A DNA stretch of 64,000 nucleotides from Euglena gracilis (lineage: Eukaryota): positions 6,583,425-6,647,424 of the forward strand of contig CP154954.1 in NCBI GenBank assembly GCA_039621445.1, in the 5' to 3' direction. The translations under genes and the position numbers were made by a program. Shown here piece after piece: positions 368-57,861 of the stretch; position 1 is the stretch's first letter; each line of letters opens with the position of its first letter. The notes beneath the pieces were generated by a model. The model saw only the letters and a program-made list of their open reading frames with translations, did not search any database and had not been told where the DNA came from.

Positions 368-1459
368 CGGTAGACTGGGGGGGGGGGGGTCCTGGGTGGT
401 CGGCCGACTAGTCGGCCGACCACCCAATTGGTCGGCCGACTAGGCCTGGTCGGCAGCCAGTCGACGAGACAGGGGGGGGGCGTCCTGGGTGGTCGGCGGA
501 CTAGTCGGCCGACCACCCACTCTAATGTAGTTACGGGCCAGTCTCGCCGACTTTTTATGAAGAAAATTGTGTGCAAACTAGTCGGTGGCTAGTCGGTGGG
601 CATAAAAATTGTCTGTGGCGGGTCCAAACCACCCGGAAATGGTCCGGATGGGGCCAAATAATTGCCTTACACCAACAGGAACACCCTCAGATGGAAATTT
701 TTGGTCGGTGGGGGGTCGGTGGGCCCTTGATGGGGTCCGGAGGGGTAAAAAACCAATGACGAAACAGGGATTACATGAAAATCCTTTAGAAATGCAAGCA
801 TTCTGCATCAGGACAGGCTGAAAACTCCCCCCTCCACCCCCACCCGAGCCCAGATAACAAAATCCCTATGTTGGCAACATACTCGGGGGCTAAGTCGTTT
901 TTGTGGCTCACTTTGGCATAGGCGGGGGGGGGGCGGAGCCCCCCCCCGCACCCCCCCCCCCTCAAATAACAAAATCCCTTCTATGTTGGGGGGGGCTCCG
1001 CCCCCCCCCACCCCCCCCCCAAATAACAAAATCCCTTCTATGTTGGCAATATACTTGGAGGGCTAAGTCCTTTTGTGCAAAATTTGACTAATATTGACTT
1101 ATATGCAACGGAGAGAGGTGTTCTTTTGCCAAAAGTGGCCCAAAATGGACATTTTGCCCCAATTTTTTTTGCATCTTCACCCCCGATTGGGGGGTTCTGG
1201 AGCCATTTGGGTGGGTTTTGACTGGTTTTGGGGTGATTTGGACAAAATTTTTTCTCAGGGGGGGGGCTTAAAAGTCGGCGAAACTGGCCCGTAACTACAT
1301 TGGAGTGGGTGGTCGGCCGACTAGTCGGCCGACCACCCAGGACCCCCCCCCCCCCCTGTCTCCCCGACTAGCTGCCGACCAGGCCTAGTCGGCCGACCAA
1401 TTGGGTGGTCGGCCGACTGGTCGGCCGACCACCCAGGACCCCCCCCCCCCAGTCTACCG
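368..1459. mobile_element. Foldback-like element with ~190-bp inverted repeats
   Basis: 368-~556 is the reverse complement of ~1269-1459; built from GGTCGGCCGAC palindromes; no TSD found. Confidence 0.7.
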
Positions 1460-27600: not shown

Positions 27601-30600
27601 AATGCCGACCTCTCCTGTCGGCTACGCAGCAGCCGCTGCCAGTCACGGAGGACATGGTGGGCCAGCAGCAGGAGGTGTTCTCCCGCCTCGGCACCTCGCG
27701 CGAGGCCCACCGACTGCGGACTCGGCTGCAGACTGGCTCGCTGCAGGCGTGTGCAATTTTGTTTTGGTGTGTGGGCGGCGTTCCTGTTGGTGTGGCATCA
27801 CGGACGATATTCCCACACCCAACAGACAGACAATTGCATTTGCCACCAGTTCCTTTTGTCAGACGGAGCACGCTGCCAATGGCATTGGTGGTGAAATATG
27901 AAATATGAAATGAAATATGAAATGGTATGAAATATGAAATATATGAAATGGTGTCAAGAACCTAAGGCCCGAATGGAATCACATCATTTTTGAAACATGT
28001 GGTTGACGGCTCACTTGTCTTCCAGATTGATGTGTTTTGTTGCCTTTCTTGCTCAGAAGATCGTTCTTGCTTATCGTGTGTGCGTCTGTGCATCTTTTGC
28101 GATGTCTTTTGTGTCCTGTGCCGTATGTTGATACACCATCTTGTAACATGCTATGTGTACGTGTTCCCTGATGAGTCTGCCCCTTGGAAAACCTGCTCAA
28201 CTTCCACACCCGCCCAACTCGCCCAGCTGATCTTACTACTCCTTTCGGGGGGAAAATATGCCCCTTTGCATTTTTTTTGGGTCGCTTTTTTTAGGGTTCA
28301 TGCTGCATTCCTGGTCGTGTCTCGCGTTTGCTGTTTCCTGTTCCCTTCTTCTCAACCACAGTCGGACATGCAGGCGTTCAAGGCGGCCAACCCGTTCGAC
28401 CCGTGCCTCGTCGACTTCGTGCGGTGGTACTCCCCGAAGGACTTCAGTGCCGCCCGGCTGGCAGACTTCGACCGGGAGCATGGCCTCAACACGGGCTGCA
28501 CGGTGGGACCCCACGAGGCCCGGGAGCTGCACTGTGCGCCGCATCCCCGTGGCCTGGGAAGTTGCTCTGAAAAGTCATATGTTTTGTCATTTTCGCGTGT
28601 GTTCTTGTGTTGTTGATTTTTTAATGAAATAAATCGTCCATTGTTACAATTTCAATTATCATGTTACATGCACATATTGGATATTGAATATGAAATAGAT
28701 ACTGTAATTAAAAAAGACAATAGATCAATAGATAATTATGTGATGATTCCATTTTCATTTGCATGTGTCCATGCATATTATGTAAACAGATTTTATGCAA
28801 ATCTCATAAACATCTGAACCTGCTTTTGCTTTCTCGGGTTCTTTGTGGTTTCTCGAGGTTCTATTCGTGAATCTGTTTTCTGTGCTCTCAAACGAGATGT
28901 GGCGGACCGCTTGAGCGCTCGCATGCAGGAGCCTGGCAATGTATGGCAGGTACTATGGGAGGAGTCTGCGGCGCTCCCGGCCTGACCCCCTCCTCGTCCT
29001 CCACATATCACTCCAGGGGATGGCAGCGTGCCTCCAAAATTGTACCACTGTGTTGCGGGGGTCCTCAAAGTAAATATGGTCTAAGGATGCTTGATTTCTC
29101 CATCAGGGTTTTTTTTTAGTCTTGTTAGGGTGGGTGGGTCTGGCCGAGCCCCCCCTCCCTCTCGGGGGGTCCCCCCAGGGGGAGTGGGGTGTACTTTTCA
29201 GCGCCGAAGGCGCCGAAAATTTGAGAAAAGGAGCTATTTTTAGCATTTTTTGCGATTTTTGGCCATTTTCGGGAAAATTGAGTGGGTCCCTCGGGACCCC
29301 CCCGGGGCCCCCAGGGGGTGGGTGGGGGGGGGGGGACTCCCCCCGGTCTTAAAAAAAAGCCCCTGTTCTCCATCTCCCCGTGGTGAAATTCCTTTCTTCA
29401 TAGAGACCCCAAGCCAAGGGGACAATGATGCTTTTTTTTTATTCTGTTCCTGGCTGAGAATTGGCTTAGAGATCGAAGGTCGTTGGTTAGCGATGCGTTT
29501 TTTTTTGGGCGTTATTTTTTCAGTTATGCAATAATTCGAATCGCAGTAAATTTGCGAATGTTGCGAAGTAGTCTCATAAACCAAATGACATTGATACCAA
29601 AGCAAAGGAATGCCAAAGGAATACCAACCGAATAGCTGAAACTGACAACGTGGCAGTTGTCTCAGCCGGCGACGTTGGGGTTCATGCTTATGGAGGTGGA
29701 TGGTGTCCGCACCCCCCCTCCCCCCCAAGCTGGGGCTCCACCCAGGGACCCCATATGGAAAGAAGGCTGTGTCCTCTTTTGGGTACTTCCAGCCAAGGGC
29801 CAATCAGTCAGAATTTTAGACGGACCTCCCCCTAAGAACCCCTTCCCCGAACAAGATAATGATCTTACTGAGGTCGTTAGTCGCCAATTCAGGAGGTGAG
29901 AACCCCCCCCCCCCCAGTCTCCCGGCCATAAACCTATTCATTTGCCCCCCCCCCCCGAATGCTGGGGTGGGGCTGTGGGGGGGGGTCAGCGGCCAGTTTC
30001 AGAGCAGCGGCAGGGGTTCGACGCGGTGCGGGAGGCCAACGTGGCACTGCACTTCCTGGAGCAGCTGCCGGTGCCCGAGGTGTTGCCGGGGCCTGGCGAC
30101 TGGTCTTGGCCGCCCAAGACTTCCGGAATGTGGCGCATACTGCGGTCCGTTCCAGCAGTGAATCTGAAACGCAGCAGAAGGACCGTCGGAGCCCCCAATG
30201 CCTGTTTATTCATCAACTGCTTTGGCCGCTCTGCCTTTTCTCTCTCCTTCAATTTGCCCGCACTCAACTTTCGGCTTGACTAAACCCATCAAACCTGATT
30301 AAAGCTTCAGTTTTTTTTTTTGGCACCGGTGTGCCATTACCCGTCGAAAACCCCCCAAAATTTGAACCTTCACAAAGCCCTCGCGCTCCAAACACTTAAC
30401 CCACTGTCTGCCATGCACAGGTGCTGCAGTGCCTGGCGGACCACTGGGTGGTCATGGCGTTCGCCGCCCTCGCCCACGCCCCCATCACGGCGCTCGTCCC
30501 CCACGCCCGCGCGCACGCCCAGCGCCTCGCGGACGCCCTGACGGCGGCGCTGGTGCCCGGCCGCCCCCTCTCGCTGGAGAGGTGTGCGGGGCGGGGGCAA

Positions 30601-33600: not shown

Positions 33601-35583
33601 AAGCTGATGGTTTTGATGGCATTTCAGAAAATTGTGGTGACAAGGTGCAACCGGCAAAGTAAGTATGCGAGGTGTTTTTTTCTCTGTTAAAGGTGTGATT
33701 CCTGCATTAGGTTCATTGCACACAAGTGGATGGGATCTAACAGTGCCACCATCAAACAATGTTGCTTGAGGTATCAAGTTGGAATAGGTGAGGGGAAGTT
33801 GTTTGTGAAAAGCATCCACGCCAAGAGGCTTGAAGAGAAAAGCACCAGTTTTGGTGTTGCCACCCACCATTGTGGTTAACATGTCATGTGCCAACCACTC
33901 TCATGAAGCGTCCCAAGAACCCCCAGCAAAAAAGACCAAAGTGGACAAGAGCCTCTCTGGCAAGAAAAAAGAAGCCTATTCCCAAAACCTTGCGTTTGCA
34001 TATTGCAACAAAAAGCTCTTTGACCTCTTTAATCCAGGGTTCGATATAAGGAGGGCGTACATGGTTTAGGTGGGGGGGTGTCCCCCTCCCCCCTCCTGAC
34101 CCGCGGGGGGGTCCGCCCCCCCCCCCCCCCTCACCTGCCAGGGGGGTCCGGACCGACCCGGGGGGGGGGGGTACCCAGGACCCCCCAAAAGGGCAATTTT
34201 TTCCTCCGGCGGAGTTTTTGGTAATTTTTTTTGTTGCAACAGCCAAATGTTTTCTTTCGGCTCCTGCACTGCACGTTTATTTGCTTGTTCTTTTGCAGCC
34301 GATGTCTCGCCAGCTTCCTTTGTTTATGTGCTGCTTGCGCTTTGATTTCGCTGGATGTCAAACTTTTGGCCCGGCGCTTTGCGCCGGGCTGAAAATCGGT
34401 CACCCGGACTGCGCCACTGTTTAGGTGGGGGGGTGTCCCCCTCCCCCCTGGCCCGCAGGGGGGGGGGGTCCGGACCACCCCCCACCTGTCCTTATATCGA
34501 ACCCTGCTTTAATCCCTGAGCACCCATTCCAAAGGACCTCCTTGGATGCGTTAGCTTGTCACGACTGCTTGCATGTTGACTGAATGATCAAAATGCATTG
34601 TTGGTATGAAAGAGTTTTAAGGCAGCTTTACCCCCCACCTATATGGCCGAAAATGGCCGAAAATGGCCGAAAATGGCAAAAATCTGGGGGTCAACTATAG
34701 GTGCTTGCCCCTGCCTAAAGGGGGTTTTTTACCCTTTAAGAGTGGGTCCCCCCCCCCCTGTGTGCCCCTGGGTGTGGATGGGTTGGCCCTCCCCCGGTTG
34801 TGCTGTGCCGGACACAGGGATCGCGCTGGATCCTCCGAGGATGAATTCTTTGCCGGGCCTCAAAGGGCACGCGGTCCTCCGCTGTTGTGGTACATCTTCC
34901 CGGGATGATTAGCGTTGCTTCGGCCGGCAGCCAAGGGACGTCATCGCCCGCCACCCCGTCGTCCGCAACCCGGCCTGAACGTCCTGACCCCCCTACAGAT
35001 CTTCAGCCAAACCGCGGGTTGGGAACGTGTTTCTAGGTATCGCTTAGGAGACGTTTCCCAAACCTTGAACCAGGGAATGGAATGGTGTGGTGCTCCTTTG
35101 GTACCCCCCCCCCCCGCCGGCTTTGTTGCATTTATTAAAAGGGCGTCTCAACATCGCCCCAGAAACCACCATTTTCCACCCCCATCCCATGGTTGCGGTG
35201 GACCATCTGTTTGTCCCGCCTGACTCTTCTTGCCCCTGAGCTTTGGTCTTTGAATGGACCCCGATGAATGCCTTTTTTTTTGGCATGTTTATTTTTGTGT
35301 TTTTTTTTTTCCCCAATTTTTAGCAAAAACCCCGTATTTTTGCGTTTTTTTTTATGGACTCCCCCCCCCTGGTGGGAGAGTCCACCGTCTCCCCCACCAG
35401 GTCTTCCCATGCACTCCGTCTTGGGGCCAACAGCATGCAGCCTGGCGGGACGGGCATGCCCCGGGCCGGGCGGTGCCCCCCGAGGAGCGGGAGTACCGGC
35501 TCGGGACGGAGGACGGGCTGCAGCGGCTGTTCGCCGGCCACACCGCCGCCGGTGTGACCCTCGCCACCGCCCTGGCCTTCTGA
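4556..35583 (+). CDS. RAB3GAP1: Rab3 GTPase-activating protein catalytic subunit, multi-exon. Approximate exons: 4556-4636, 8126-8204, 9269-9390, ~10275-10420, ~10560-10723, 12125-12260, 12643-12770, 13378-13485, 13912-13953, ~14990-15067, ~15515-15575, ~17258-17410, 20821-20940, ~21690-21785, ~22765-22915, 23344-23396, 23949-24009, 26473-26630, 27620-27746, 28362-28533, 28897-28978, 29995-30079, 30421-30581, 31635-~31745, ~32205-32320, 34818-~34870, ~35433-35583
   Basis: Exon translations give Rab3GAP1 motifs in the expected order: FEIADFSTVTAWERL; TWGTTADPIEQLRCELRWP; LWRRFAEAVRLFWE..GPPDWSSCLLHQ|KLQMVNACI; LFIP|ATQQPLPVTEDM..LGTS..LQ|SDMQAFKAANP..DFVRWYSPKDF; LSARMQEPGNVWQVLWEE; EREYRL..QRLF..LATALAF-stop. 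The first exon/start codon and some internal exons are tentative. Confidence 0.9.
7330..7880 (-). pseudogene. Possible decayed non-LTR retrotransposon reverse transcriptase fragment
   Basis: Minus strand gives a frameshifted AF-DSVSH (cf. KAFDSVSH) and a downstream GVKQ; no YADD motif seen. Confidence 0.3.
12261..12642 (+). other. Nonconventional intron
   Basis: T|ACC-GCTGTTTACGGGGAGAGG ... CCTCTCCCCGAACAGC-AGCTT|G; long stem; in frame. Confidence 0.7.
16555..17205. repeat. AT-rich low-complexity ATATT/ACATATT repeat
   Basis: Visible directly. Confidence 0.9.
17585..20577. mobile_element. 3-kb non-autonomous DNA transposon with ~70-bp TIRs and 5-bp TSD
   Basis: TIR CTTAGGCGGCC(T/G)AATTCGCACTTAA...TTGCGCAAATTTACGATTTTTTTG at both ends; ATGCT at 17580-17584 and 20578-20582; internal arrays of TGATGCGCGCATTTGCGCAAAT (~18260-18780, ~19740-20180). 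Confidence 0.85.
23397..23948 (+). other. Nonconventional intron, ATG...CAT stem
   Basis: T|GCC-ATGGCTGCCATGAG ... CCCAAGGCAGCCAT-CCCCC|A; in frame. Confidence 0.65.
24830..26445. repeat. Degenerate CA/CT/CG low-complexity tract
   Basis: Irregular CAC/CTCA/CGCA runs, possibly poorly polished sequence. Confidence 0.85.
26631..27619 (+). other. Nonconventional intron, GAG...CTC stem
   Basis: C|GCC-GAGGGG ... CCTCTC-CTGTC|G; joins LFIP|ATQ, position constrained by Rab3GAP1 homology (LYIPVTQ). Confidence 0.75.
28362..28533 (+). CDS. RAB3GAP1: Rab3GAP1 catalytic-domain exon
   Basis: SDMQAFKAANPFDPCLVDFVRWYSPKDF matches the family signature SDMxxFKAANP..DFVRWxSP; preceded by a pyrimidine tract and CAG. 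Confidence 0.93.
28979..29994 (+). other. Nonconventional intron, CTG...CAG stem
   Basis: C|GGC-CTGACCCCC ... GGGGGTCAG-CGGCC|A; required because an in-frame TGA follows the exon; joins ALP|VSEQRQGFD. Confidence 0.8.
29104..29365. mobile_element. hAT-type MITE
   Basis: Ends CAGGGTTTTTTTTTAG / CTTAAAAAAAAGCCCCTG; perfect 8-bp TSD TTCTCCAT. Confidence 0.9.
33078..33357. repeat. 18-bp minisatellite (GGACAAGATGCAGATGCT-like), ~15 copies
   Basis: Direct tandem repeat visible in the sequence. Confidence 0.9.
34035..34506. mobile_element. hAT-type MITE
   Basis: 18-bp perfect TIR CAGGGTTCGATATAAGGA; perfect 8-bp TSD CTTTAATC (34027-34034, 34507-34514). Confidence 0.92.
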
Positions 35584-36964
35584 CCTCCCCTGCCCTCTCA
35601 CTGACCAGTGCGGTCCGCCGGCTTCCGCTTGCCACTGCAGCGCCGCGTGCCATCCAAGAGCTGTGGGCTGCCCTCCCCCCACAGTCTATTGGCGGATGGA
35701 GCGTGGCAGGGCAGGGGACTGCGCGAGCATCAGTGCGGTGTACAGTGTAGCCGTGGCGAGACACGGGGAGGGTGTTGGGCAGGCATTTGGGCCGGTACAC
35801 GCCAAGCCACGGCCTGAGCATGGCCATGCCCATGCTCTGTCTATCTAGATATCTCTACCTATCTAGCCATGTCCATGGTGTCGGGGGGGGGGGAGGCGAA
35901 TGGCAGTAATTGCCTCCTGTTTGCCAATCCTGTGTTCCGGCCAACACAGCCTCCTGCCCTGCGACAGGTGCGCCGTTGGCACAAATCCTCTGCGACCCAA
36001 TCACGCTGGCTCCAGTGGGCACCCGCAAGGGTTCACGTGCTCAATTGTGTTCTTGGTTTGCGAGAATTTAGGGCTCTCATAATTCATTGCTGCCTGAAGT
36101 GCGGAGTTGAACATGGGTGCCATATTCTTCAACCGTTGCTGGGGAGTCTGCCATTGCCAGTAATATGTTTTGTGTGGAAAAAATTCCCCCGACGGATGAA
36201 ATGTCCTCAGGTGCACTCCACTGTGTCTCCCAAACCATGAAAAAAGCAAACAATGGCCTTTGAATAATCTGCACAGCTAACTGCAGAATAAGGAAGACTA
36301 CAGAATCCAGGAAAGTCTGGATTTCAGTGTGTCAAATCCTGCCCCACTTACAACTCCCTCATTGTTACAGAGTGCGGCTTGGTGTTCGACCCTGATGGGG
36401 TTTTATCGAGAAGATTCAATGCTCCTCTGGAATTTCGACATTTTTGACCACAAAATAGGTCAAAAATGGGCGAAAATGGGTTGGAAAAGGGCTGAGAAGT
36501 AATTGTCAGTTTTTTTGGACATTTTTGCAGTTTCGATTCTTTTTGGTACCTGGTTCGACCCCGGACCCCGGACCCCTGGGGGGGGGTGGAGGGGGGTCAG
36601 CCAGATTTTCCAGCCTCTGAGCTGGACCCCCTGGAAGGGGGGGGGTCGATAAAAAGTGCCCTAGTGGGGAGCGGCTTTCTGTGAGTGGCGTTCATAAGTG
36701 GAAGTGTTTGTGCAGTACATCTGAGTTGGTCAAAAAAGTGTCTCAGTTGTTGCACCACATACCCGAGGCAATGGACAAGACACTTGCATATGCACCTGCG
36801 GGGTTTACAAGACGCAAATCCATAACGAGCAACCTAGTTTCGGGAGAGTTGCCGGAGCGATTTGGGGCAGGTGAGACCGAGCGCTGGACGATACCATTGA
36901 CTTCGACTTAAAATGTTGGTTGCACAATCGCGCAAAGGGACTATTCGCTCAAATGCGCATACGG

Positions 36965-37673: not shown

Positions 37674-39800
37674 ATGCCGAAGTACGCCCCGGACTTCTGG
37701 CGCAACAACTACCTCGACATGTCCTCCGCCGGCGGGGGCGACGCGGTGTGGCAGACGATGGGCGCCACCGCGAAGCCCGCCGCGGAGGGCCAGGCCGCGG
37801 GCAGCAGTGCCTACGACACGTGTGCAGGGTGGGGCCAGTCGGAATGTGCGAGTGTCCCTTTTTTGGCACGCAACCCAGCCGACCTTTCCCACTTTCGTTT
37901 CGACAGGATGGAATCCCGCATAAACCTGAATTTTTGTCACCCTTGTGACCACCCTTCGGAAGGAACATGCAGGTCATGTTGGTAAGTACAATTGTTCCAG
38001 GGCAGTTTCTCATTGAGGACAGTTACCCCAGGTGGGGGGAGGTGGGGGGAGGATAATTGAAATGGGTTGTCATAGAATTTGAGGACAGTTGGGGATGGAT
38101 GTTCAGAAAAAGGGGACGGTGCAACGCATTTTGAAGTCCGATTTTTAAACAAGCTGCAACCCGACCAGGGTTTGATATAAGGAGGGTGTTCGGGGTTTAG
38201 GCGGGCCCTCCTGGACCAGAGGGGGGCGTCCGGACCCCCCACCTGCCAAGAGGGGTCTGGACCCACCGGGGGGGGGTAACCGGGACCCCCCCCCCCCAAA
38301 GGTCAACTTTTCCTTCCGGCGCTTCTGCAACCCGACCAGGGTTTGATACAAGGAGGGTGTTCGGGGTTTAGGCGGGCCCTCCTGGACCGGAGGGGGGCGT
38401 TCGGACCCCCCACCTGCCAAGAGGGGTCTGGACCCACCGGGGGGGGGGGGTAACCGGGACCCCTCCCCAAAGGTCAACTTTTCCTTCCGGCGCTTTGCGC
38501 CTTTTTTTTTTGCATTTTTTGACAAATTTTTGCCCAAAAATTGCCCAAAATGGCACTTTTGGCCGTTTTTGGTGGGCCAGACCGAAAATTTTTGGTGCTG
38601 GGCCAAAAATCAGCGACTCCCAGACCGTGCCACTGTTTAGGTGGGGGGGGGGTGTCCCCCACCTGCCCTTTTATCAAACCTGAACCCAACCTGATGATTT
38701 ATGTTTGATTACCGCCAATTTAACATCATTTGCTTTGTGCCACTGATCCACTAGATGATTCATGGACTCGTTGGTGGGTGACGTTGTGTGTGGAAATGTT
38801 TTTGAAGTGTGTCTGGGCAAAGATGACGGGAAACAAAGATGACGGGAAACAAAGATGGCCATCCAGTATTTCTCGTCATTTCTTCCCATCTTTTCTTCCT
38901 GTCTTTTTTTCCCATCAGTTTTTTTCCGTCAGTTTTTTTCTGTCAGTTTCTCCCGTCTTTTTCCTTGCCGTTTTTTTTTTCATGGGTTTTCCAGTCCTTT
39001 TTTTCTGTCAATTTTTCCCGTCATTTTCCCCGTCATTTTTTCCTGTCATTTTTGTCCCCCCTCCCCAGCCTGGGGTCCCTCCGCCCTGGCACCACAAGGG
39101 GCTGCTCAGCCTGGCGAAGACACACGCCGCGGCGGCGGGGCTAGGGGTTTTCTAAAGCTGGAGGGGACCCTACCCCCCCAGGAGCCAGCACCTTTTTTCC
39201 AGCCAGCACCTCCCAGCCCCCCCCCCCCCCCAGGGGGTCCGCTGACAGAAAGTTCAGGCCAGCCGGTGAAGAAGCCAGAATGGCAAACATTCTTGAAAAA
39301 TGAAAAATGGTGGGAAATGGCGTTTTTGGGTGGGTTTGGGGGTTTTCCCTCCAAAAATGCAAACCCAGCTGGCTTTCGGCTTTTTTTTTGGCTTTTTTTT
39401 GGGATACCTGCCGGGTCCAGCTTCCAGCTGGCTGGACCCCCCCACTGGACCCCCACCCCCAGGGGGGGTCCAGCCAACTCCTTCTTCCAGCTGGCCCATG
39501 GGACCCCCCCCCCCCCAGGTCCTTAAGATAACCCCTGGGCGGGGCAGGTGGCGGCTACGAAGGGGACGTGCAAGCGCTGCGGCGCCACAGGCCACCTCAC
39601 GTTCCAGTGCCGCGGTGAGGCCGGCGCCCGGATAGACTGGCCGCTGGTGTTTGCTTTGTATTTCCAATTAACATTCCAAGCCCTAAAGTCACTTCCTCTG
39701 CAAGTTTGCTTCTTCTTCTTCTTCTTCTTCTTCTTCTCTTCTTCTTCTTCTTCTTCTTCTTCTTCTTCTTCTTCTTCTTCTTCTTCTTCTTCTTCTTCTT

Positions 39801-39831
<31 letters not shown>

Positions 39832-42800
39832 TCGTTGTTGCTGTTGTTATGATTCTGATTCTGATTCTGATTCTGATTCTGATTCTGATTCTGATTCTGA
39901 TTCTGATTCTGATTCTGATTCTGATTCTGATTCTGATTCTGATTCTGATTCTGATTCTGATTCTGATTATGATTACAATTATGATAATGATTATGATTAT
40001 GATTACGATCATGATCACGATCACGATCGCGATCGCAATACGATCACAATTTCAATTACAATAACAATTACAATTGCAATTATTATTGTTGGTGTTGTTC
40101 TTGTTCTTGTTATTATTATTGTATATATTGTTTTTACTATTATATTATTATTACATATTTCATTATTACTCACTCAATTTATCATTTTCAATTTTTTTTC
40201 AAAATATAAATTAAAAAAAATTCATAATGATTTCATGCGTTACTTATACTCATTCACGCACAATTATGAAATCACAGGTCTCCACCTGTGATGCTTTTGC
40301 GCCCCTCCCAGCTCTACCGCCTATGGCCCGACGCTTCAAGGGGTGGCGCCTACGCAACGGGCGGGGAAGAGGTGGGGGACGCCTGGACTACCCGCCACGG
40401 CTAACGCGGGAGGGCTGGGGGGGAGTCGGGTGAGGGGAGGCCCTAGGGGCCAACCTTTTAGAAACAGGGGGGGGGGGTGGCCACGCATCGCTGTCTCGCC
40501 TGGTGGGGTGGACGGGGGGTCGTCGGCCGTCCAATCGGCTTGCACCAGGGCCCCGGTTTCCGATACCGCGGGGGAGGGCGTTACGGGCCTGGGACAGGGA
40601 GGCAGGGTTCGGGCGGCCGGACGCCAGGCGGTGCCACTCTCGGTTCGGGGACGTGGGGCGCGGGCGGATCCCCGGGGTCCGCTTCCCCCCTTTCCTGGCG
40701 GGGCACGTGGCGTCTGCCGGAAGGGCGGGTGCAAGAGGCAGGTGGAGGTCCGGCCACGGCCTCTCCTTCCCTGCCAAGGGGAGCATGAGGGCCGCTGCGG
40801 TGGGTCTTTCCGATAGGGGGTATTCCCCCTTCCTCCTTCCTCTCTGGGTTGCAGTTGGTTCTGCCTTTCTTCACCCTCGGTGTCTGATCGGATTCTGTCG
40901 CTCGCTCTCTCCCATCTTCTCTCACTGTCGTCCCTGCACGGACCGGGTGCGGGGGGATTCTCTCTTCTTCTGGAGCACTCTCCTGGCGGGGGGATCTGAG
41001 CTTCTAGCAGCCCTTCTGCCTTCTTTCTGATGGGGAGTTGCTCCCAGGTGTTGGGGAACCTAGGGCTGAGCAGGGATGGGGATGATCCTACGGTCGGGGG
41101 GGTTCTGATCATCCTTCAGGGAGCGGTCCGCCTCTGAACAGGACTGCGCGGGGGGGGATTACAATCATGCGCACGGGCCGCCCAGCGGCGGGCGGGTGGG
41201 TGGCGGGGTGGTGGTGGGGGGTTACGGCCTGGCTGTTCTGTGTTCTGTTATTTTGTTTGTTTTGGCCCTTTACTTTTAATTTTATTACATGGAAAAATTA
41301 TGGGCTGTTTATTTTTCTTTTGATTTAGTTGTTTTTTTTTTCTTGCTCTGTGATGCTTGCAGGTTATTTAAGCTCAGTTCTTCATGGCGCCTCGCCCCGC
41401 AGAGAAGGCAAGACGCTGTGACTTCTTCCCACCCCAGGCCGTTTCAGCCGCCACTTTGGGGCTATGGGTCCCGGCTGGGAAAACCCAATGCGTGGCGGGT
41501 GGGTCGACCCCCCCCCCCCATCCTGGTGGGTGGGTGGATGGGTGGGCAGGGCCAGTCCCCCACCACCCCTTCCTGTGACCCGGGGTTTCTAGGCCACAAA
41601 TGCGGATTCCGTGCCCGGCGCCATCGAGGGGTCGACCGTCCCACCCCCACCCGGCCTTCCCGTACCGCCCGGGTGGTCCCCGGCGGCGGCCTCCCCCCAA
41701 CCACATGCGGCCGTCGGGGCCGGACCGGGCTGCGGAGTCGTCGGGGAAGGCGATGCCGGAGCGGTGGGAGATGCCCAGCAGCACCAGCAGCGTCTCGAGC
41801 GAGGAGGAGAAGGCCCCCGACGCGGCCCAGGCCCCCCCTTTCCGCCGCACGTCCCACGCAGCGTGTAGCTTAAGAAAATTTGCCCCCCCCCCCCTCCGGG
41901 GCGGGGTCTGGCTAGCCAGCAGCCTTTTTCCAGCCTGCCCCCCCCCCTCAATGACATTATTTTATCTTTCCAGCCGCCCTTTGGGCAGCTGGACAGTAAC
42001 GGGTTTTCGTTTTTGGGGGTACAAAAATGGTCCAAAAATGGGGCGAAAATGGGTCAGATTTGGCCTGGCCAGGAAATATTTGGGGTCAAAAAATTGATTT
42101 TTTTTTTTTGCATAAGTGGCAGTTTTTTTGAACGTTTTTGCACTCTCGATTTTTTGGGACCCAGTTCGGCCCCAGGTCGGGTCCAGCTCCAGCCCGGGGG
42201 GGGAGGGAGGTCAGCCAGCAGCCTTTTTCCAGCCAGCCCAAATTTTCCAGCCTCTGAGCTGACCCCCCTCCCCCCGGGGGGGGGGGTTGAAGTTAGCGCC
42301 GGCCATAAACAGACAAGAAGCCTTAGTGCAACTAAGGGGGGGGGGTTGTTAAAAAAACGCCCTGGTCCCACGGTGTCACCGACGCAGAAGGGTTTTAACA
42401 GGTCGGTGCCCCCCTGGACGGCTGGGACGGCTGGGAATTTTGAGTTTAGTTTGGATAGATAATGTTCTATTGATGCCGAAAATCATTTTTCTTCCCCGAG
42501 TTGGGCTGTTTTTTGTTGGCTGGAACTTTGGCGTTTTGTTTTTTGCTCTTTCGGAGTAAATTCTGCTGGTCCGAATTTTTTAAGGTATTTGAAGGCATTT
42601 TGGGGCATTTTAAGGGTTTTTAAGGTGGCTTAAAATGTCATAATGCCTGCGGCGGTCGGCCTGACCACCTACGTCCAACATGGTCGCTGGAGGGGGGCCT
42701 GTGTTCTTGACAGTGATGTTGAGGAGAAGGCCAAACCCCCCGATTGGGTGGCTGCCAGCACCGCGAGCAGCAACGATCTGTGAATTTATTTAAAAACTTT

Positions 42801-45749
42801 TGCTTCGTTTCCTTTGCAGAACACTGCGCAGATTATGCCGACACATGGACACGATTGAGACGTCAAGGCAGGGGGGGGGATGGGGGCGTGGGTGGGTCCG
42901 CCCCCAGGGGGGGTGGAGTCAGGGAGGTGGAAAATATGTACTATACATTTTTTCCAGTTTTTTTTTGCAGTTTTCACGTTTTGGGTTTTTTGCAGTTTTT
43001 TGCAGTTTTTTTGCAACTTTTTTTTGTTCCAGTTTTGAGGAAACCTAAGATGTTTATTTTTTGGTGCTTGTTGTTTTGGCGACAAAGCCACAATTACTCC
43101 CCAACCAAAATTGCTCCCTCTCCAACCTTTGCATTGTAGGAGGTTTGAACAATGTTGAAGGTTGTGAGGGCAGTCGTCAAAGGAGTGCGCAAATTACAAC
43201 AGGTAACCGACATCTTCGTTCCACCCCAATACCTGATGCATATTTTTTTGCGCATGACCTTGCTCTGACCCCGTCTGATGCAGTTGTTGAGTCTGCATTC
43301 AGTCGGCTGAGGATGATTTTGGCAGATCGTCGGTTACGTTGGAGTTCTGACGTTGTTGAGCAGCGCAACAGTTCAGTGCTCGGCGTGCATGCTTCAGGCT
43401 CAAGCGAGCCGACAAAGGCACAAAGCGACGTGCGAAGGGTATGTCTAAAGGAAAAGGCAGACTCAACGTCGATGTGTCAGATGAAGGTTGCTTGCGAGTA
43501 CATTTCGTTCAACAGTAACCTCCACTTCCCCGTCCTCCTCCTCCTTCTTATCTTCATCGTCTGACCTCTCCTCTGATTAAAAGAACCCGATAAAGCATGT
43601 TGCGATGATGTTTTCTTTGCATTGCCATGCCATTCCAATGCTCATCCCATGTCACACCACTCAATGGACCGAAAGTTCCAAATTGAACATCCCCTGCAAG
43701 AATTGAAAGCATCGAATATTTCTGTGTATGGGTTTATGTGCAGTTTTTCCATATTTAGAGAGGAAACCATTTGGCATCATTGTGGGCATGATGGTCGGTG
43801 TGACCCGGCATCCAAACACATGACTTGCATTTCAGTGTATGAAATACCGTATACAGTGTACCTTGATGGACTGCTTCCATTTTTGTCTTCATCAGCTCCA
43901 AAGCTGTGCAAAAAAGTTAGGTCAATTGGGGCGTGCTCATGTGGTCACAATTTACGTTGTTTTGCATATGCACACCATTTCAGCTTGTTTATTGTCTTTT
44001 TTTTGTTGAAGTGCAGTTTTTTGCAGTTTTTGCAGTTTTTTTTTGCAGGTTTTTTTTGCAGTTTTTTGCAGTGCAGTTTTTGACTGGCCCATGCGCAGTT
44101 TCTCCCCCCCCCCTGGTGGAGTTCTGGCCGAGTGGTAGCCCGCTGGAGGGGGGGGTTTCGAAGCGCAAAAACTTTTTGACCCCAAAATTGACCCCCAAAA
44201 GTGGGTCCCTCCAAGCCCTCCCCCGGGTACCCCCAGGGGTGGTGGGTGGGTGGGTGGGTGGGTGGGTGCGGACCACTTTTAATGGAAACAATGCTGTCAA
44301 GGGACAGCGGCTGGAGTGCTGCGGAGCCGCTGCAAGAGTTTCGAGAAACCAGATGTGGGGTACCGCGCCGTGCCAGCACCGTCCAAACGCCATCCTCCCC
44401 CTCATTGCCGGGTGTGTTTGCCCTCTGCCCCGGAGGGTCAACCTCCGCCACGAAACAGTGGGCCAACGCCGCGGAACGCCGGCTTGGCAGGGGCCCGCCC
44501 TCGACGGGCTCCGAGGCCGCGGGGGGGCCCAGTTCCAGCGCGACGAGCAGTACTACGCCCCCCGCCCAGGGCTGCCTGTGTGGAGAGAGAGGCCGAGGAG
44601 GAGGAGGACGGGGTGGCCTCCCCGCCCCCATAGCGGGAGGGAGGAGGCGGAATCGCACGTTTGGATTTCCGGTGGGTGGCGGTGGAGGGGGGTCCCATCT
44701 GGTGGTGGGGTTGGGGGGGGTCACCCACTGCTTCCCAGTTTTACGGTGGCGCCGAAGGAATCGCCCCTTGCAAAGTCCCATTTGGTAGCCTGTCCATCCA
44801 TCTTTCTATGAATCTATGCCACACACCCAGCACAGCACCACACAAGGAAAACGTTGACCTAAAAGTCGGCACCCCCAGAAATTTGGGAAGGCCTCGTTGG
44901 GGGTGGGGGACCCCATCCCTCCAAGGCCCGGGAAAAGCCCCCCCCCCCGGGTCAGTAAGTGAATCTATGGTGTGGGAGTCGACCCCCACCCCACTAGGCC
45001 TTCTCGTACAACGGGTCAGGATAAGCGGCGGAATAGTTTTTTTTTAACCAGCCCCCCCCTGGCCAACATGCAGCCGTGCCCCTGCCGCCCGCCCTCGCCC
45101 CCGCCGCCCCGGGCGGCGGTCCCCGACGACGCGGACGGCACGGAGGTGGTGTTCATCCCGGAGCCCCTGAAGCGGCCAGGGCGGTGGGGTGGGGACCGGG
45201 GCCCGGTCTGCTGCCTCAGACGCCCCAGACGCATTGGGCCCCTGAGGCGCCCCGGGACGCCCGAGGCTCCACTGGCGGCAAGGATGAGGGTTGCAGATGT
45301 CTTGTATATTTTGATATTTAGTATTTTATTAGTTTTAGTATAGATATTTAGTGTTTTATGTTATTATGTCTTATATTTTGGTATATTTTGATATTTCTCA
45401 TGGGAATGTTCATTATTGCCTCAATAAAAACACTACAATGAAGTTCAACTTTTGTATGAACTGAAGTTTAAAGAAATGGCAACTGCGAAAAATGTGGGTT
45501 TGAATTTTTTTTTGGTGTCAAATTATCAAGCCAAGGGGGTGAAGGTTTTCTATCACACGAGAGGTTCTCTCAGACCCTGAACTTGCCATCTTGGTCTGTC
45601 ACCAATTGTCACCAACCCTTTGGTGACAATTTGCAGAAGAGTATCCATGTCAACTGCAATAGGCCTGGCTTTGAGTATACACTACACACACACGCGCACG
45701 CGCGCGCACGCACGCACGCATGCGCGCACGCACACACACATTTGCACAT

Positions 45750-52728: not shown

Positions 52729-55700
52729 ACGTGTCTGCTCGAGCAGGTCAAGCTGCACTCACGCCTGTGTTCACTGGAACCCGCCCATTTGCCCTCCTCC
52801 CCACCACACTCACGCCCCCACCCCCCCCCACACCCGCTCCCTGCCCCGCCCCCCCCCGCTCCCCGCCCGCCCGCCCCCCCCCCCCCCCCGCCCCCGCCGC
52901 GCCCCCCGCCGCCGCGCCCCGCCCGCCCTCGCCCCCCCCCGCCCCCCGCGCCCCTCCCCTCCCCCTCCCCCCCCGGCCCGGCCCGTCCCTCTCCTCCTCC
53001 CCCCCTCCTCGTCGGCCCGGCGGCCTCGTGTGTGTGCTGGCCGGCTCCTTGGTTTGGAAGTCATTGATCTAGTCGTCTCTCAATTGGCCCAAGGTTTACA
53101 GCTGGAAAACATTTGAACCATTTTTCTGTGTCTTGCAAAAAAGTTCGAGAACATTCAAATGGGTGTCCCAGTCCTATTCACAGGTAGTGCAGGTGGATTT
53201 CGCCACAATTACCCATACCTGAAGCCTACCCCGTTCCCGCCCCCAGCCATAATAATAATGACTCCTGTCCAGATTGATGGCGGTCCGTCTTATCTGTATT
53301 GCGTTGAAGCAGGGTTTTTGAACGGTGGTTCATCCAGTGCAGCCTGGCTCCGATGCGGCTCCCGCGGCGCAGCTCTTTGCCATCCGTCCCCAGCTGGTGC
53401 CCTACGCCGTGGCAGTGGTGTGCGCGCGCCATGCGATGTGTTGCGAACAGGGGTTTTTTTTAGTCGTGGACCCCCGGGGGGGGGGGGGGGGGGGAGGGGG
53501 GGTGGGTCCGGCCGCGCCCCCCCCCGGGGGGGGGTGTCCCCCCGGAGGGGGGTAGGATATACTTTTCGGCGCCAAAGGCGCCGAAAAGTGCCATTTTAGA
53601 ACTTTTCGCGATTTTCGGCCATTTTTTTGTGGGTCCCCCAGGACGCTCCCTCCCTGGGGGGGGCCCCCCAGGGGGTGGGTGGGTGGGGGGGACCCCCCCT
53701 CCCCCCGTCTTAAAAAAAAACCCCGGGTTGCGAATGGGTGGGTGGGTGGTGGGTGCCGCTGCATCGCCCTTGATCCAAGGCAGGCGTTTCAATCTCTGTT
53801 GATTCTGTGAGAAGGAATAGACCTGGTGTTGTCGGAGCGCCCTCCCCCCCCCCCCCCACCATTTGCCCATCAGGTGAAAGCTGCAGACCCAGCGGACGCG
53901 GTCCGAGCAGGGCTCTGTTTTTGAGTGTGGCACAATTATTGACCTCCGGAGGCCACAGCGGGTCCGAGGTGGGACCCTGCTTGTGCCCAAAGGAGGGTCA
54001 CCTTTCCTCAACAACCCATGTTCGGATCGTCGCTTTCCTTTGTCAATCAAAGGGTGAAGTTTATGTCAAAAATGGGCATAAGAAATGTTTTTTTTTTCTG
54101 AAGGAATTGCCTGCTTTTGTTTTGTTACCGGTATTCATTTCTGTTCGTTTTCTTTGCTTTTGAACCTGCTTAGAGATTGAGAAGCAGTAAGCAAAGTGCC
54201 CTTTCAGCAATTTTCCTCTCCATATCGCCATCCACCCCAGAATTGTATCCTCCCTGTGAAAGTTGTGATTGTATTGTGGCTTCTGTTCCTTTGTTTCCAT
54301 TTTCATTACATTGCTTTCTCCAGGATGTCCCCTCTATTTGAAGAAGAACATTACCACATGGCTGGTTTTCTTTACAAGTCCCGCTTCTGAAAATTGAACT
54401 TTTTTGCATTTTTCGTTTGAACGTAAATTTCAAATTCGATATTTTTGTTGAAATTTGATACATATTGTTTTGTTTTATTACTTTTTGTTATCACATATTT
54501 TTACATTTTACAATATATATGTATATATAAATATTTTTAAACAAAACCGACGTTCCTGGCTCTCCTGCTTCCTCTGGTGTGCGTGTTGCGGTAAACACAG
54601 CCCCCTGCCCCCGCCTCCTGCCGGCGTGCCTGCTGCTGCTGCCCCGGCCCCCGCCCGCCGGCTCCCCCGCCACGGACGCCGACGCCGCCGCCGCGCCGCT
54701 GCTGGCGGGCGTCGCCGCGGCGCTGCAGCACACGAAGGGGCCGGCGGACTGGGCGGTGTGGCGGCGGGTGGCGGCGCCCCCGGGGCCGTGGGCGGCCGTC
54801 ACGGCGGCGCAGTACGCGGCGGCGCTGCTGCCCGGCATGGCGCAGGTGTGTGGGCCGCGGTCTGGGGGCCCGGGGCCGCGCCGCGCGTCCCGGCCGATTG
54901 CGGTTAGTCGCACGGACACACACCCCCCGCCCCAAATTCGTCCCGTACCGGCTGAAAGAGGCCTCCCAGGGAGTTTGTCATCCGAACTCTGGCGGGGCTT
55001 GGGGGGGGGGGGGGGTAGCGTTGCCGGTCGGCCCACCTCCAGCTGCGGCGCGGCCAATTTCCTTTCCCAGATTTCTCACCCGCCCATATGCGTTCGAGAA
55101 CAGAAGTTTGACACGGGGCACATCACCCGGCACAAGCCCTCGCCCCCCCCCCCCCGCCGCCCCCCCCCTCCCCGCCCAGGCACTGCGCAAGGGCTCGCAC
55201 GGCACCATCCCCGCGGTGGCCGCCGTGCTGCAAGCCCTGCCCCCCGCCCTGCTGAGCCTCCCGCCCTGGCCTTCGCTGGAGGCGGGTGGGCAATGGGCCC
55301 CACTTGGGCCAGGCTGAAGGACCCCCTGTGGAGGAAGGGCCTTCGACCTTGACCAGCTGGTAAGGAAGTTTTTATGGGTAAAATGACAGGAACAAAGAAT
55401 TGGAAAATGGGGCTGAAAATGCGGGAATAAAAATGATAAACGACAGATAGTAATTAAAAATAATACCAAAAAATAGGAGCAAAGTGCATGAGAACTATGC
55501 GTAAAAACAATGTAATCAAAGTGTGTAAAAAATAATACAATGTAATAAGATCAGACAAAAAGTGCGGGAAAAAACCTTGGGTGGCTTCTTCTAGCAAGCA
55601 GCCACCAACGATGGAAACGCTGCCAGACGATCCCCCGCCCAGTGCTGACCCCGCGAAGGCCTTCCCCCGACGAAGGAGCTCGCCCGGCCCCTGGCGCTGG

Positions 55701-57861
55701 GGGTGCGGGAGGCGGACCTCAGCGCCGTGGCCAGCGCCGCCTGCCTCACCCTGTGCTGCGCCCCCGCTGAGCCCGACCTGGCGGCGGTGTGTGCCGGGTG
55801 TTGTTGGTCCTTCTGGGCATGGGTCTGTGGCATACAATCACTTGGTCACGGGCCGACCCCCCCCCCCCCACCCCCAGGGAGGGGGTGGCTGACTGGGTTT
55901 TCAGAGTGACCGACTGGGTTTCGGCCCACACCCCTCCCCTTGGGTGGGGGGTCGGCAATAAACACCGAGGTGACCCGGCGCCGAAGGCACCGATTTTTTA
56001 AAGGCCATTTTCTTCACATTTGTGGCCAATCCCAAAGTGCCCCCCCGGGGGGGGGTAGTGACGGACTGGCTTTTTTATTTCTTCGAGCAAAAAACGTGAT
56101 TGATTGGTTTCCGCAGAGTGACTCCAAGGTCCATGCATGCCTCTCTGTCCTGTTCATAGTGTTGTGTGCATGCGTGCAAACAACTTCGTCATGACCTGTA
56201 ATGATCGTCATGTTGGTGCAACGTCGCGTGTACCCACCAAGGGGAGACCTGGGACGACCCTTGGTGTGACCGAGGGAGTATTCGGGACCACCAAATTTGC
56301 ACTTTTTGCTGAAAAGTTTATTATATATTTCTCTTTTAAACAGAGGTTTTGAGAACACGATTTTTTTTAAAGGCATGTTTGAAGCCTTCTGATTTTTTCC
56401 AGCGCTTGGGGCTGGGGTATCCCTCAAGGGTCTCTTTCACTTCGTACCCAAGGGAGAGAGAGAGAAACGATGAAGAAACACAAGGACAAAATCGGCAGCT
56501 GCTTTCAAGGGGAGTTGGCATTTAGACAAAAAGGAAGTTTTTTCTGGCATAATTCAAAAACATGACAACTGAAAAGTTATGAGAAAATCATCAAATGCCC
56601 ATATGTATAATATATAATATATAATATATATATATATTATACGCATATGTATGTGTATATATCTCTCTCTCACTCTCGTCCGAGCGGAGAAAGAGGCAGA
56701 AAAAACAATGTGGGGGAAACGGCAGGATTCATTGTGCTTGTACTGAAAACAATTCTTCCAAACAGCCGATGCATTTTCCCCAAAAACGCCATGAACTGAT
56801 ATATAAAGAGTCGAGAAACATAAGTCGTCCTTCCCACTTTTCCACGTCCTTCTGGTTTCCCACCATTTTTGTCCGGACTGTGTGGAGGGAAAGGCACCAG
56901 GACGCTGGCATCGCTGCACCCCACGCTGTGCCCGGTCCCGCAGGAGGCCCTCCGGGAGGTGGTGGCGGCGTTCAACGGCTGCAAGGACATCCTGGAGAAG
57001 GTGGCGTGCCTGCGGCTGCTGGCCGCCATCCTGCGCCGCGGGCTGGCCGCCCCGGCCAGCGGTTTTTCGGTTGGCCCCTTTTAAGCCCCCCCCCCTAGTT
57101 CGTTGGTGCTGGCACGAAGACGGTGGTCAAGGATCCAACAAATCGTTTGTTGTCCCCCCAAAGGGAGGAGGAGGCTGACTAAGACTGGCCTACAAAAGTC
57201 ATCTCCTACAACTCTGACTAAACCCCACACCGGTTTGGCCCAATGCGGTCCCACCCTCTCCCCCGCCTCATCCCTCGAAGAAACCTGATCTCAACCGCGG
57301 AGGTCGTGCAGGCAGCCCTGAAGCCCCTGGCGGCCAGCCTCGTCCTGCCGGCTCTGAAGCCGACGGTGACTGGGGCTCCGGCAGAGGTGCGAAGTGAAAC
57401 ACACACCTGCACGTGCGAGCAGCCCTCCCCCTCCGCGTCCAATGCCTCCAAAACAAACATTCACGCACACATTTTTGATGCAGAACACTATCTGTGCGAT
57501 TTTTGGCCCCCAAAAGTGAAATATGCGTGTGAAGCACGTGCGAGATACTCGAGCTGTCTGCCTCCGCTGCTGCTTGCCTGTGGTGGCTTGACAGGCACTG
57601 CAGCACACATCTTATGGGGAGTGACAGCAGCCGTTGTCTTCACCCCCCCCGGATGGTGTGACACAGGTGCGGTTGGTGGCGTACGACGTGCTGCTGGCGG
57701 CCGTGGAGGCAGCTGGGGCGGTGCCAGACTACGCCGGGGCGGCGGTGAAGGACGTGCTGGCGTACGACGACGAGGCGGTGCGCCGGCTGGCGCTGCGCTT
57801 CGCCGGGCGGGCGGCGGGGGCGGAGCCAAAGAAGGTGGGTCTGCATGTACGTGTGTGTGTG

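What the first reader, a model, noticed from the sequence alone, without database searches (positions are those of the whole stretch)
42913..44123. hAT transposase remnant inside a CAG...CTG element
Seen: peptide LALTPSDAVVESAFSRLRMILADRRLRWSSDVVEQ (43232-43363) lies within an element bounded by CAGGG.../...CCCTG and GTGGAGT direct repeats. Established: the pattern matches the hAT C-terminal dimerisation domain. Inference: it ties the CAG/CTG 8-bp-TSD MITEs to hAT transposases, the candidate mobilising enzymes. A speculative extension is that a domesticated transposon-end-recognising factor acts in the still uncharacterised nonconventional splicing machinery.
Basis: partly seen in the sequence, partly recalled or inferred. 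Interest (0 to 1): 0.75.

Follow-up and report, generated by a model that had tools for sequence, protein, structure and literature searches.

The report
Broken hAT transposon in Euglena intron
A 1.2-kb broken copy of a cut-and-paste (hAT) transposon sits inside an intron of a Euglena-like gene; it is likely an ordinary relic, but it starts with CAG and ends with CTG like this organism's odd introns, which likely arose from related elements.

Summary
The hAT reading holds, but indirectly. Element 42920-44115 (CAGGG...CCCTG, TIR 11/15) carries a frameshifted, internally deleted transposase C-terminus (43236-43473). The fragment itself gets no Pfam hAT hit. Its relatives (71-91% identical over 35 aa) do: 7 of 10 hit PF05699. 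Their profile ranks Hermes first in the PDB, and a full-length relative folds like Hermes (Z 11.9). DNA depth and skip-joints point to a many-copy family of deletion derivatives.

Two claims need trimming. The exact flanking repeat is 7 bp (8 only if one G was lost). The element shares only its first 3-5 bases with the window's 8-bp-TSD MITEs, so the link is at superfamily level.

RNA places the element inside a 1761-nt nonconventional intron; it is not itself an intron. In the same gene, a 396-bp MITE plus exactly one 8-bp repeat is missing from mRNA (31 reads), matching the 3+5 splicing rule. An empty allele is not excluded. The scan has noted that geometry many times, including at this site.

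Nothing supports a domesticated transposase in splicing. Verdict: new member of a known kind, modest interest.

The parts
42913..42919 (+). Left target-site repeat GTGGAGT (7 bp exact; 8 bp from 42912 if the element's last G is shared)
42920..42934 (+). Left terminal inverted repeat, begins CAGGG; 11 of 15 match to the right end
42946..43036 (+). Left subterminal array of (G/C)CAGTTT-type motifs; likely transposase-binding repeats (inferred)
   Evidence: highest DNA depth
43152..43231 (+). Short ATG-started stretch in frame with the first transposase piece; possibly the remains of the N-terminus (guess, no homology found)
43236..43256 (+). Transposase piece 1 (MHIFLRM), out of frame with piece 2
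43259..43363 (+). Transposase piece 2: hAT C-terminal region with the Glu that aligns to the Hermes SERTFS motif (codon 43289-43291)
43363..43473 (+). Transposase piece 3 (basic tail), in another frame, after a gap of about 21 codons against P0010
   Evidence: 84% over 37 aa
43527..43577 (+). Ser-rich tail like the C-termini of the relatives (weak match)
43580..44010 (+). 3' non-coding part of the family; 43629-43688 also matches P0010 in translation
44013..44100 (+). Right subterminal array of the same motif, in direct (not inverted) orientation to the left array
44101..44115 (+). Right terminal inverted repeat, ends CCCTG
44116..44122 (+). Right target-site repeat GTGGAGT
42742..44502 (+). 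Host nonconventional intron (1761 nt; slidable by 3; TGG/CCG stem at +4/-6) that holds the element
   Evidence: RNA loose ends, 9 reads in 1 of 3 RNA runs
42709..42741 (+). Short host exon just upstream of that intron
39139..39542 (+). Context: intron of the same gene that equals a 396-bp TAGGG...CCCTG MITE (39142-39537) plus one copy of its 8-bp repeat GGCGGGGC
   Evidence: 31 reads, 4 of 4 RNA runs, 2 studies

Best explanation
The 1196-bp element is likely a non-autonomous deletion derivative of a hAT DNA transposon: it keeps both ends and a broken C-terminal piece of the transposase, and it lies inside an intron that RNA reads show is removed. Shown: termini, flanking repeat, homology to hAT transposases, breaks in the reading frame, position inside the intron, raised DNA depth. 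Inferred: an intact P0012-like transposase encoded elsewhere bound the ends and subterminal repeats, cut the element out and pasted it here, duplicating 7-8 target bases; most of the gene was lost by internal deletion, as in many sister copies; the copy is tolerated because it is spliced out with the host intron. For the intron question it is one supporting datum: a hAT-coding element in this genome has CAG...CTG ends. It is probably not the family that moves the intron-forming MITEs of this window.
For: Relatives at 71-91% identity over the 35-aa core; 7 of 10 hit PF05699 at E<=3e-4, 6 of 10 above the curated cut-off. A profile built from those 10 alone finds only this place in the window (iE 5e-18 and 8e-9; next 0.06). 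Profile A2 against the PDB: the top 4 of 12 rows are Hermes or its 'transposase' entries, E 0.016-0.037. P0012 model against 48,161 chains: Hermes first, Z 11.9, rmsd 3.0, 159 aligned; next Z 5.9. Atlas first hits are hAT clusters for the fragment (0.92) and for P0012 (0.93). DNA run X1: flanks about 160, end bins 4.5e5-1.1e6, coding bins 4.8e3-1.8e4, with many internal skip-joints. Host intron.
Against: No direct Pfam hit for the fragment and no PDB hit for it alone. The exact repeat is 7 bp where hATs are described with 8 (PMC3942097). PDB profile E-values are weak, the P0012 model is of low confidence (pLDDT 51, pTM 0.44), and Foldseek gave no match. The depth figure is no copy number by the tool's own note, and some skip-joints may come from the same motif standing at both ends. 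No autonomous copy with ends was seen; the source organisms of P0003-P0015 are unknown. The host intron rests on loose ends in one run.
Confidence: 0.87

Rival explanations
1. One reading: this same transposase family mobilises the 8-bp-TSD MITEs, including the one that serves as an intron at 39139-39542.
For: Shared (C/T)AGGG starts; 4 MITE-like elements with exact 8-bp repeats in the window against 0-1 in 6 shuffles; one is missing from mRNA with exactly one repeat copy.
Against: The ends diverge after base 5 (the MITEs continue T-rich to a TAA(G) motif, this element continues purine-rich to AAA), and blastn finds only a 24-28-nt T-rich match between this element and 2 of the 4 MITEs. This copy's exact repeat is 7 bp.
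Confidence: 0.15
2. The transposase piece is a passenger: a fragment captured in, or nested into, a CAGGG element of another superfamily.
For: No read or contig spans the left end and the coding piece together in the listed rows; 43040-43230 has no protein homology; other 8-bp-TSD transposons exist in E. gracilis (Merlin, PMC8101967).
Against: Depth is raised without a break from end to end; P0010 joins the coding piece to the 3' non-coding part at about the same deletion as X1 joint 43489-43632; no inner pair of ends with a flanking repeat was found; Merlin ends are 5'-GG.
Confidence: 0.08
3. A domesticated transposon-end-recognising protein acts in nonconventional splicing, and this remnant is a trace of that lineage.
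For: The trans-acting factors are unknown (PMC12501133 Discussion); the splice signal and the element ends share CAG/CTG.
Against: This copy is frameshifted and deleted and belongs to a many-copy family, not a single conserved gene. Artificial 50-bp introns with only CAG/CTG, spacers and a paired stem are spliced, so no transposon subterminal motif is needed. hAT enzymes act on double-stranded DNA (established knowledge).
Confidence: 0.03

Closest known systems
Non-autonomous hAT deletion derivatives (BuT2-derived short copies in Drosophila, PMC3942097, passages seen; Ds of maize, recalled)
   Same: Short TIRs, kept outer parts, lost inner transposase gene, many copies of different length.
   Different: Exact flanking repeat 7 bp rather than 8; subterminal motif arrays in direct orientation at both ends; euglenid-type host, for which no hAT description was found.
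Hermes transposase (PDB 8edg, 6dww, 4d1q, 2bw3)
   Same: C-terminal motif aligns (AVVESAFS with AASERTFS), an RW motif aligns, and the helical insertion region superposes for relative P0012.
   Different: Very distant in sequence (17% in the structural alignment); Atlas neighbours of P0012 are DUF4371/FAM200/ZNF862-type hAT clusters; the window copy holds only about 80 codons.
Euglenid nonconventional introns (code 5'-N3CDG-/-CH'GN5-6|R, PMC12501133; MITE-origin idea, PMC3935182, PMC11282704)
   Same: CAG...CTG ends that pair; 3+5 spacer bases equal an 8-bp duplication; the MITE at 39139-39542 fits that geometry in RNA.
   Different: The hAT element is not an intron but lies inside one; with a 7-bp duplication, a 3+5 cut would remove one base too many.
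Merlin transposons of E. gracilis (PMC8101967, passages seen)
   Same: DNA transposon in a euglenid with 8-bp TSDs.
   Different: 5'-GG ends and an IS1595-type transposase; no match to this element.

Membership tests
hAT superfamily | Transposase with the hAT C-terminal region (PF05699) | tested here: met
   Met through relatives: 7 of 10 hit PF05699, profile hit iE 5e-18. The fragment alone has no Pfam hit.
hAT superfamily | DDE catalytic core of Hermes type | tested here: inconclusive
   The Glu motif aligns to Hermes and is present in the window. The two Asp motifs of P0012 (near 86 and 179) are read by eye; that part of the model is under pLDDT 50; the window copy lacks them.
hAT superfamily | Helical insertion domain as in Hermes | tested here: met
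   For relative P0012 only: Z 11.9, rmsd 3.0, 159 aligned, next row 5.9. Absent from the window copy.
hAT superfamily | Short TIRs (10-25 bp; PMC3942097) | tested here: met
   11 of 15 match, first 5 exact. That hAT ends begin (C/T)A(G/A) is recalled; the paper search for it failed.
hAT superfamily | 8-bp target-site duplication | tested here: inconclusive
   7 bp exact; 8 bp if one G of a G run was lost. One copy only; no empty site seen.
Autonomous hAT element | Intact transposase ORF, 2.5-5 kb | tested here: not met
   1196 bp; three frames, about 21 codons missing inside, N-terminal 500 codons absent.
Same family as the window's 8-bp-TSD MITEs | Shared TIR and subterminal sequence | tested here: not met
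   Only the first 3-5 bases agree; no end-to-end homology.
Euglenid nonconventional intron (the element itself) | Removed from mRNA at its own ends | tested here: not met
   RNA joins exons at 42743 and 44505, around a longer intron. Separate removal from pre-mRNA was not testable at this depth.
Euglenid nonconventional intron (MITE 39139-39542) | N3-stem...stem-N5|purine geometry and removal from mRNA | tested here: met
   Skip 404 = 396+8, 31 reads; 8-pair stem, exon restarts with G. Starts TAG, not the strict CDG. Empty allele in the RNA strains not excluded.
Domesticated transposase | Single-copy, intact, conserved, expressed gene without ends | tested here: not met
   Broken, with ends, many-copy. 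A domesticated copy elsewhere in the genome was not testable.

The most novel reading that the evidence does not exclude
The euglenid nonconventional splicing code is a hAT footprint: CAG/CTG are hAT ends and the 3+5 spacers are one 8-bp target duplication, so hAT families such as the one traced here have been making scarless introns across the genome. The P0012-type enzymes give a first handle to rebuild intron birth in the lab. The further step, a domesticated transposase inside the splicing machine, is not excluded but I put it near 0.03.
Probability: 0.5. Interest if true: 0.8.

Novelty: new member of a known kind. Interest (0 to 1): 0.4.

Why it matters
About 72% of E. agilis introns are nonconventional, and their origin is stated as unclear, with MITEs proposed but no superfamily named in the passages read. 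A CAG...CTG element that still carries hAT coding sequence names a candidate enzyme class and gives protein queries (P0012, P0014) for finding intact copies. The locus itself is a dead relic inside an intron, and it does not show which family moves the intron-forming MITEs, so its weight is supporting, not decisive.

Tried and rejected
Direct Pfam scan of the fragment: only PPL5 and MinE at E 0.12-0.14, taken as chance. PDB search with the fragment alone: 0 hits. P0002 and P0006 (2 of 8 hits) are long tandem-repeat proteins matching by a short motif; dropped before the alignments and counts. DNA context for an intact partner: none in metagenome, viral or prokaryote genome contigs; a 20-nt pattern scan gave 1 locus, L001, that matches by those 20 bases only, so chance. 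No whole genome is held. Cluster membership and source names of the relatives stayed unknown. Single-sequence fold of P0012: pLDDT 37, not used. Foldseek on the better model: no match at E<=0.001. No RNA holder was listed for the element; RNA reads laid on it were mostly 90-95% alike and about 80% ran on into other sequence, so they come from other copies and say nothing on this one. Whole-intron folding of the MITE intron is not above shuffles (z -1.3); only the end stem is informative. The 22-aa zinc-knuckle exon had no Pfam hit. One search used a last-exon start one base too early; one search corrects it. Look-ups of earlier findings by sequence were blank. The paper search for a hAT end consensus returned only unrelated papers; a search for hAT subgroups with other TSD lengths found 0.

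Full report
Observation. The sequence is as described. The element spans 42920-44115, opens with CAGGG and closes with CCCTG; 11 of the outer 15 bases match between the ends, the first 5 exactly. GTGGAGT stands directly on both sides. The exact repeat is 7 bp. Because the left copy sits at the end of a G run, an 8-bp duplication that lost one G at the right junction fits equally well, and one copy cannot decide it. CAG..CTG pairs with a 7-bp repeat are common by chance (10 seen, mean 5.3 in 50 shuffles). With a terminal match of 11/15 or more, the window holds 12 pairs with a repeat of 4 bp or longer: this one (7 bp), three of 8 bp, five of 10 bp from one palindromic cluster at 409-1419, and three of 4-5 bp; 40 shuffles gave none of 7 bp or more. 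My shuffles break repeats up, so they are a lenient control. Both ends carry arrays of a (G/C)CAGTTT motif, 12 copies in the element, all on the + strand.

The peptide. It lies at 43259-43363. Pfam does not recognise it: 3 queries, no hAT hit at E<=10; the PDB search with it alone is blank. The indirect evidence outweighs it. phmmer over 1.84 billion proteins gave 8 hits and the second search 5, 12 distinct proteins; 2 were tandem-repeat proteins and were dropped. The other 10 match the 35-aa core at 71-91% (tblastn; some alignments run longer at 55-69%). Seven of the 10 hit PF05699 at E<=3e-4, 6 above the curated cut-off, 1 weakly, 2 not at all; of two further relatives, P0014 hits below the cut-off and P0015 not at all. 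A profile of the 10, built without the window sequence, hits the six frames of the window at 43256-43363 (iE 5e-18) and 43342-43482 (8e-9), the next hit being 0.06. P0012 is 632 aa. A 7-sequence profile ranks four Hermes/transposase sequences first among 12 PDB rows, weakly (E 0.016-0.037), aligning AVVESAFS to AASERTFS and an RW motif; that this Glu is catalytic in Hermes is recalled. An alignment-based model of P0012 (pLDDT 51) has Hermes as its only match above Z 8 among 48,161 chains (Z 11.9, rmsd 3.0, 159 residues; next 5.9), though Foldseek found nothing and the tool warns that helical models can reach such Z by chance. The Atlas returns hAT clusters for both the fragment and P0012. Together these make the hAT identity secure.

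State of the copy. Nothing upstream matches the first 500 residues of P0012. It cannot encode a working enzyme.

Family. Twenty of 24 listed runs of one organism hold part of the inner stretch, none half of its words. On DNA run X1 the flanks have summed depth near 160, the end bins 4.5e5-1.1e6, the 3' non-coding part 1e5-8e5 over most bins, and the coding bins 4.8e3-1.8e4. The tool says this is no copy number; I read it only as many relatives of the ends and far fewer of the coding piece. Fifteen of 29 joints are shown, most skipping inner parts (65-1042 bases); some may be artefacts of the motif at both ends. P0010 passes from the basic tail straight into sequence matching 43629-43688, about the same deletion as joint 43489-43632, so it is a sister copy and ties the coding piece to the 3' part. 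No DNA context for an intact copy could be had.

Setting. RNA places the element in a gene. In one search, 9 reads of run X22 (1 of 3 RNA runs) cover 42709-42743, with loose ends that match the window up to 41824 and from 44505. One search adds joints 35704-35966, 37821-39094 and 39133-39538, and a loose end from 39613 to 41699 in 4 of 4 runs. The exons from 37674 read as one open frame with a CX2CX4HX4C knuckle; the likeness to CXIP4/SREK1IP1 is recalled, not tested. All 6 introns can be placed with a paired stem starting at +4: five end 5 bases after the stem, one 7; all restart on a purine. Only 1 of 6 meets the strict published code; the others vary the triplet or the spacer. This marks the genome as euglenid (inference; earlier notes call it E. 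gracilis, unchecked). The hAT element lies inside the intron 42742-44502, 178 bases from its start, and is not itself the intron.

The link to MITEs and introns. Four elements with exact 8-bp repeats and matching ends are in the window (29104, 34035, 39142, 41859), against 0-1 in 6 shuffles. The one at 39142-39537 interrupts a coding exon, and RNA lacks 404 bases, the element plus one repeat copy, in 31 reads from 4 runs of 2 studies. Leaving both repeat copies in would shift the frame. This is the geometry of the published code, 3 bases before CAG and 5 after CTG: 3+5 is 8. The hAT remnant shares only its first 3-5 bases with these MITEs. It therefore shows that hAT-coding elements in this genome can have CAG...CTG ends, not that this family moves the MITEs. 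Merlin elements of E. gracilis also make 8-bp duplications but end in GG.

Mechanism, in order. An intact family member supplies transposase (inferred). The enzyme binds ends and subterminal arrays, excises and inserts, duplicating 7-8 bases (inferred from family knowledge; repeat shown). Internal deletions yield many short derivatives (supported by joints and P0010). This copy landed in an existing intron, probably inside an older small repeat, and is removed with the intron (RNA, one run).

Literature. PMC12501133: parts 1 and 3 of 6, the Discussion and search passages seen; it calls the origin unclear, suggests MITE-like sources and says the trans-acting factors are unknown. PMC11282704: section 6 and passages; PMC3935182: passages; in both the word hAT has 0 occurrences in the main text. 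PMC11170887, PMC8101967, PMC3942097: passages. Searches for euglena+hAT+transposase gave 1 paper (Merlin), euglen+'hAT transposon' 0; some searches were seen as listings and showed none on hATs in euglenids. The library lacks most subscription papers, and I opened no supplements; repeat tables of Euglena genome papers may well list hATs.

Earlier findings of the scan. My reading was written before the look-ups (notes 29, 38, 48). The scan has recorded the MITE-intron geometry many times in this genome, including this window's 39134-39545, and one note reports a transposase-coding hAT shaped as an intron, which if right is a stronger case than this one. These are unchecked AI notes and not independent support.

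Verdict. A real but ordinary dead hAT derivative: new member of a known kind. Interest 0.4.

Noticed in passing
window 39134-39545: 396-bp MITE with exact 8-bp repeats inside a coding exon; mRNA lacks element plus one repeat (31 reads). Empty allele not excluded.
   Followed up: yes
window 42869-44296: The hAT element appears to sit inside an older small repeat of about 225 bp with CAG...CTG limits and a 6-bp flanking repeat TCAAGG (7 with a shared G); read by eye.
   Followed up: partly
window 41825-42708: Nonconventional intron with a 10-pair CAG/CTG stem but a 7-base 3' spacer, outside the published 5-6; it holds a nested 506-bp MITE with 8-bp repeats (41859-42364).
   Followed up: partly
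window 39614-41698 and 35705-35965: RNA-supported introns that keep the 3+5 geometry with other paired triplets (GAG/CTC, AGG/CCT), outside the strict code.
   Followed up: partly
window 57335-57693: CAG...CTG stretch with an exact 8-bp repeat between two coding-like pieces that join in frame; weak ends; possibly a second intron with an intact duplication. No RNA laid.
   Followed up: no
window 34035-34506 and 38166: MITE with an 18-bp perfect TIR and 8-bp repeat; a related partial, tandemly doubled copy at 38154-38495.
   Followed up: partly
window 29104-29365 and about 53480-53726: Two related MITE copies, 71% alike over about 250 bp; the first has an exact 8-bp repeat.
   Followed up: partly
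window 368-1459: Long inverted repeat (about 190 bp, 94%) built from palindromic 10-bp units.
   Followed up: no
window 37674-about 47770: Host gene with a zinc knuckle and a Ser/Arg/Lys-rich end; likeness to CXIP4/SREK1IP1 is recalled; exons beyond 44700 not mapped.
   Followed up: partly
window 39709-39968: Long TTC and GATTCT microsatellites inside an intron.
   Followed up: no
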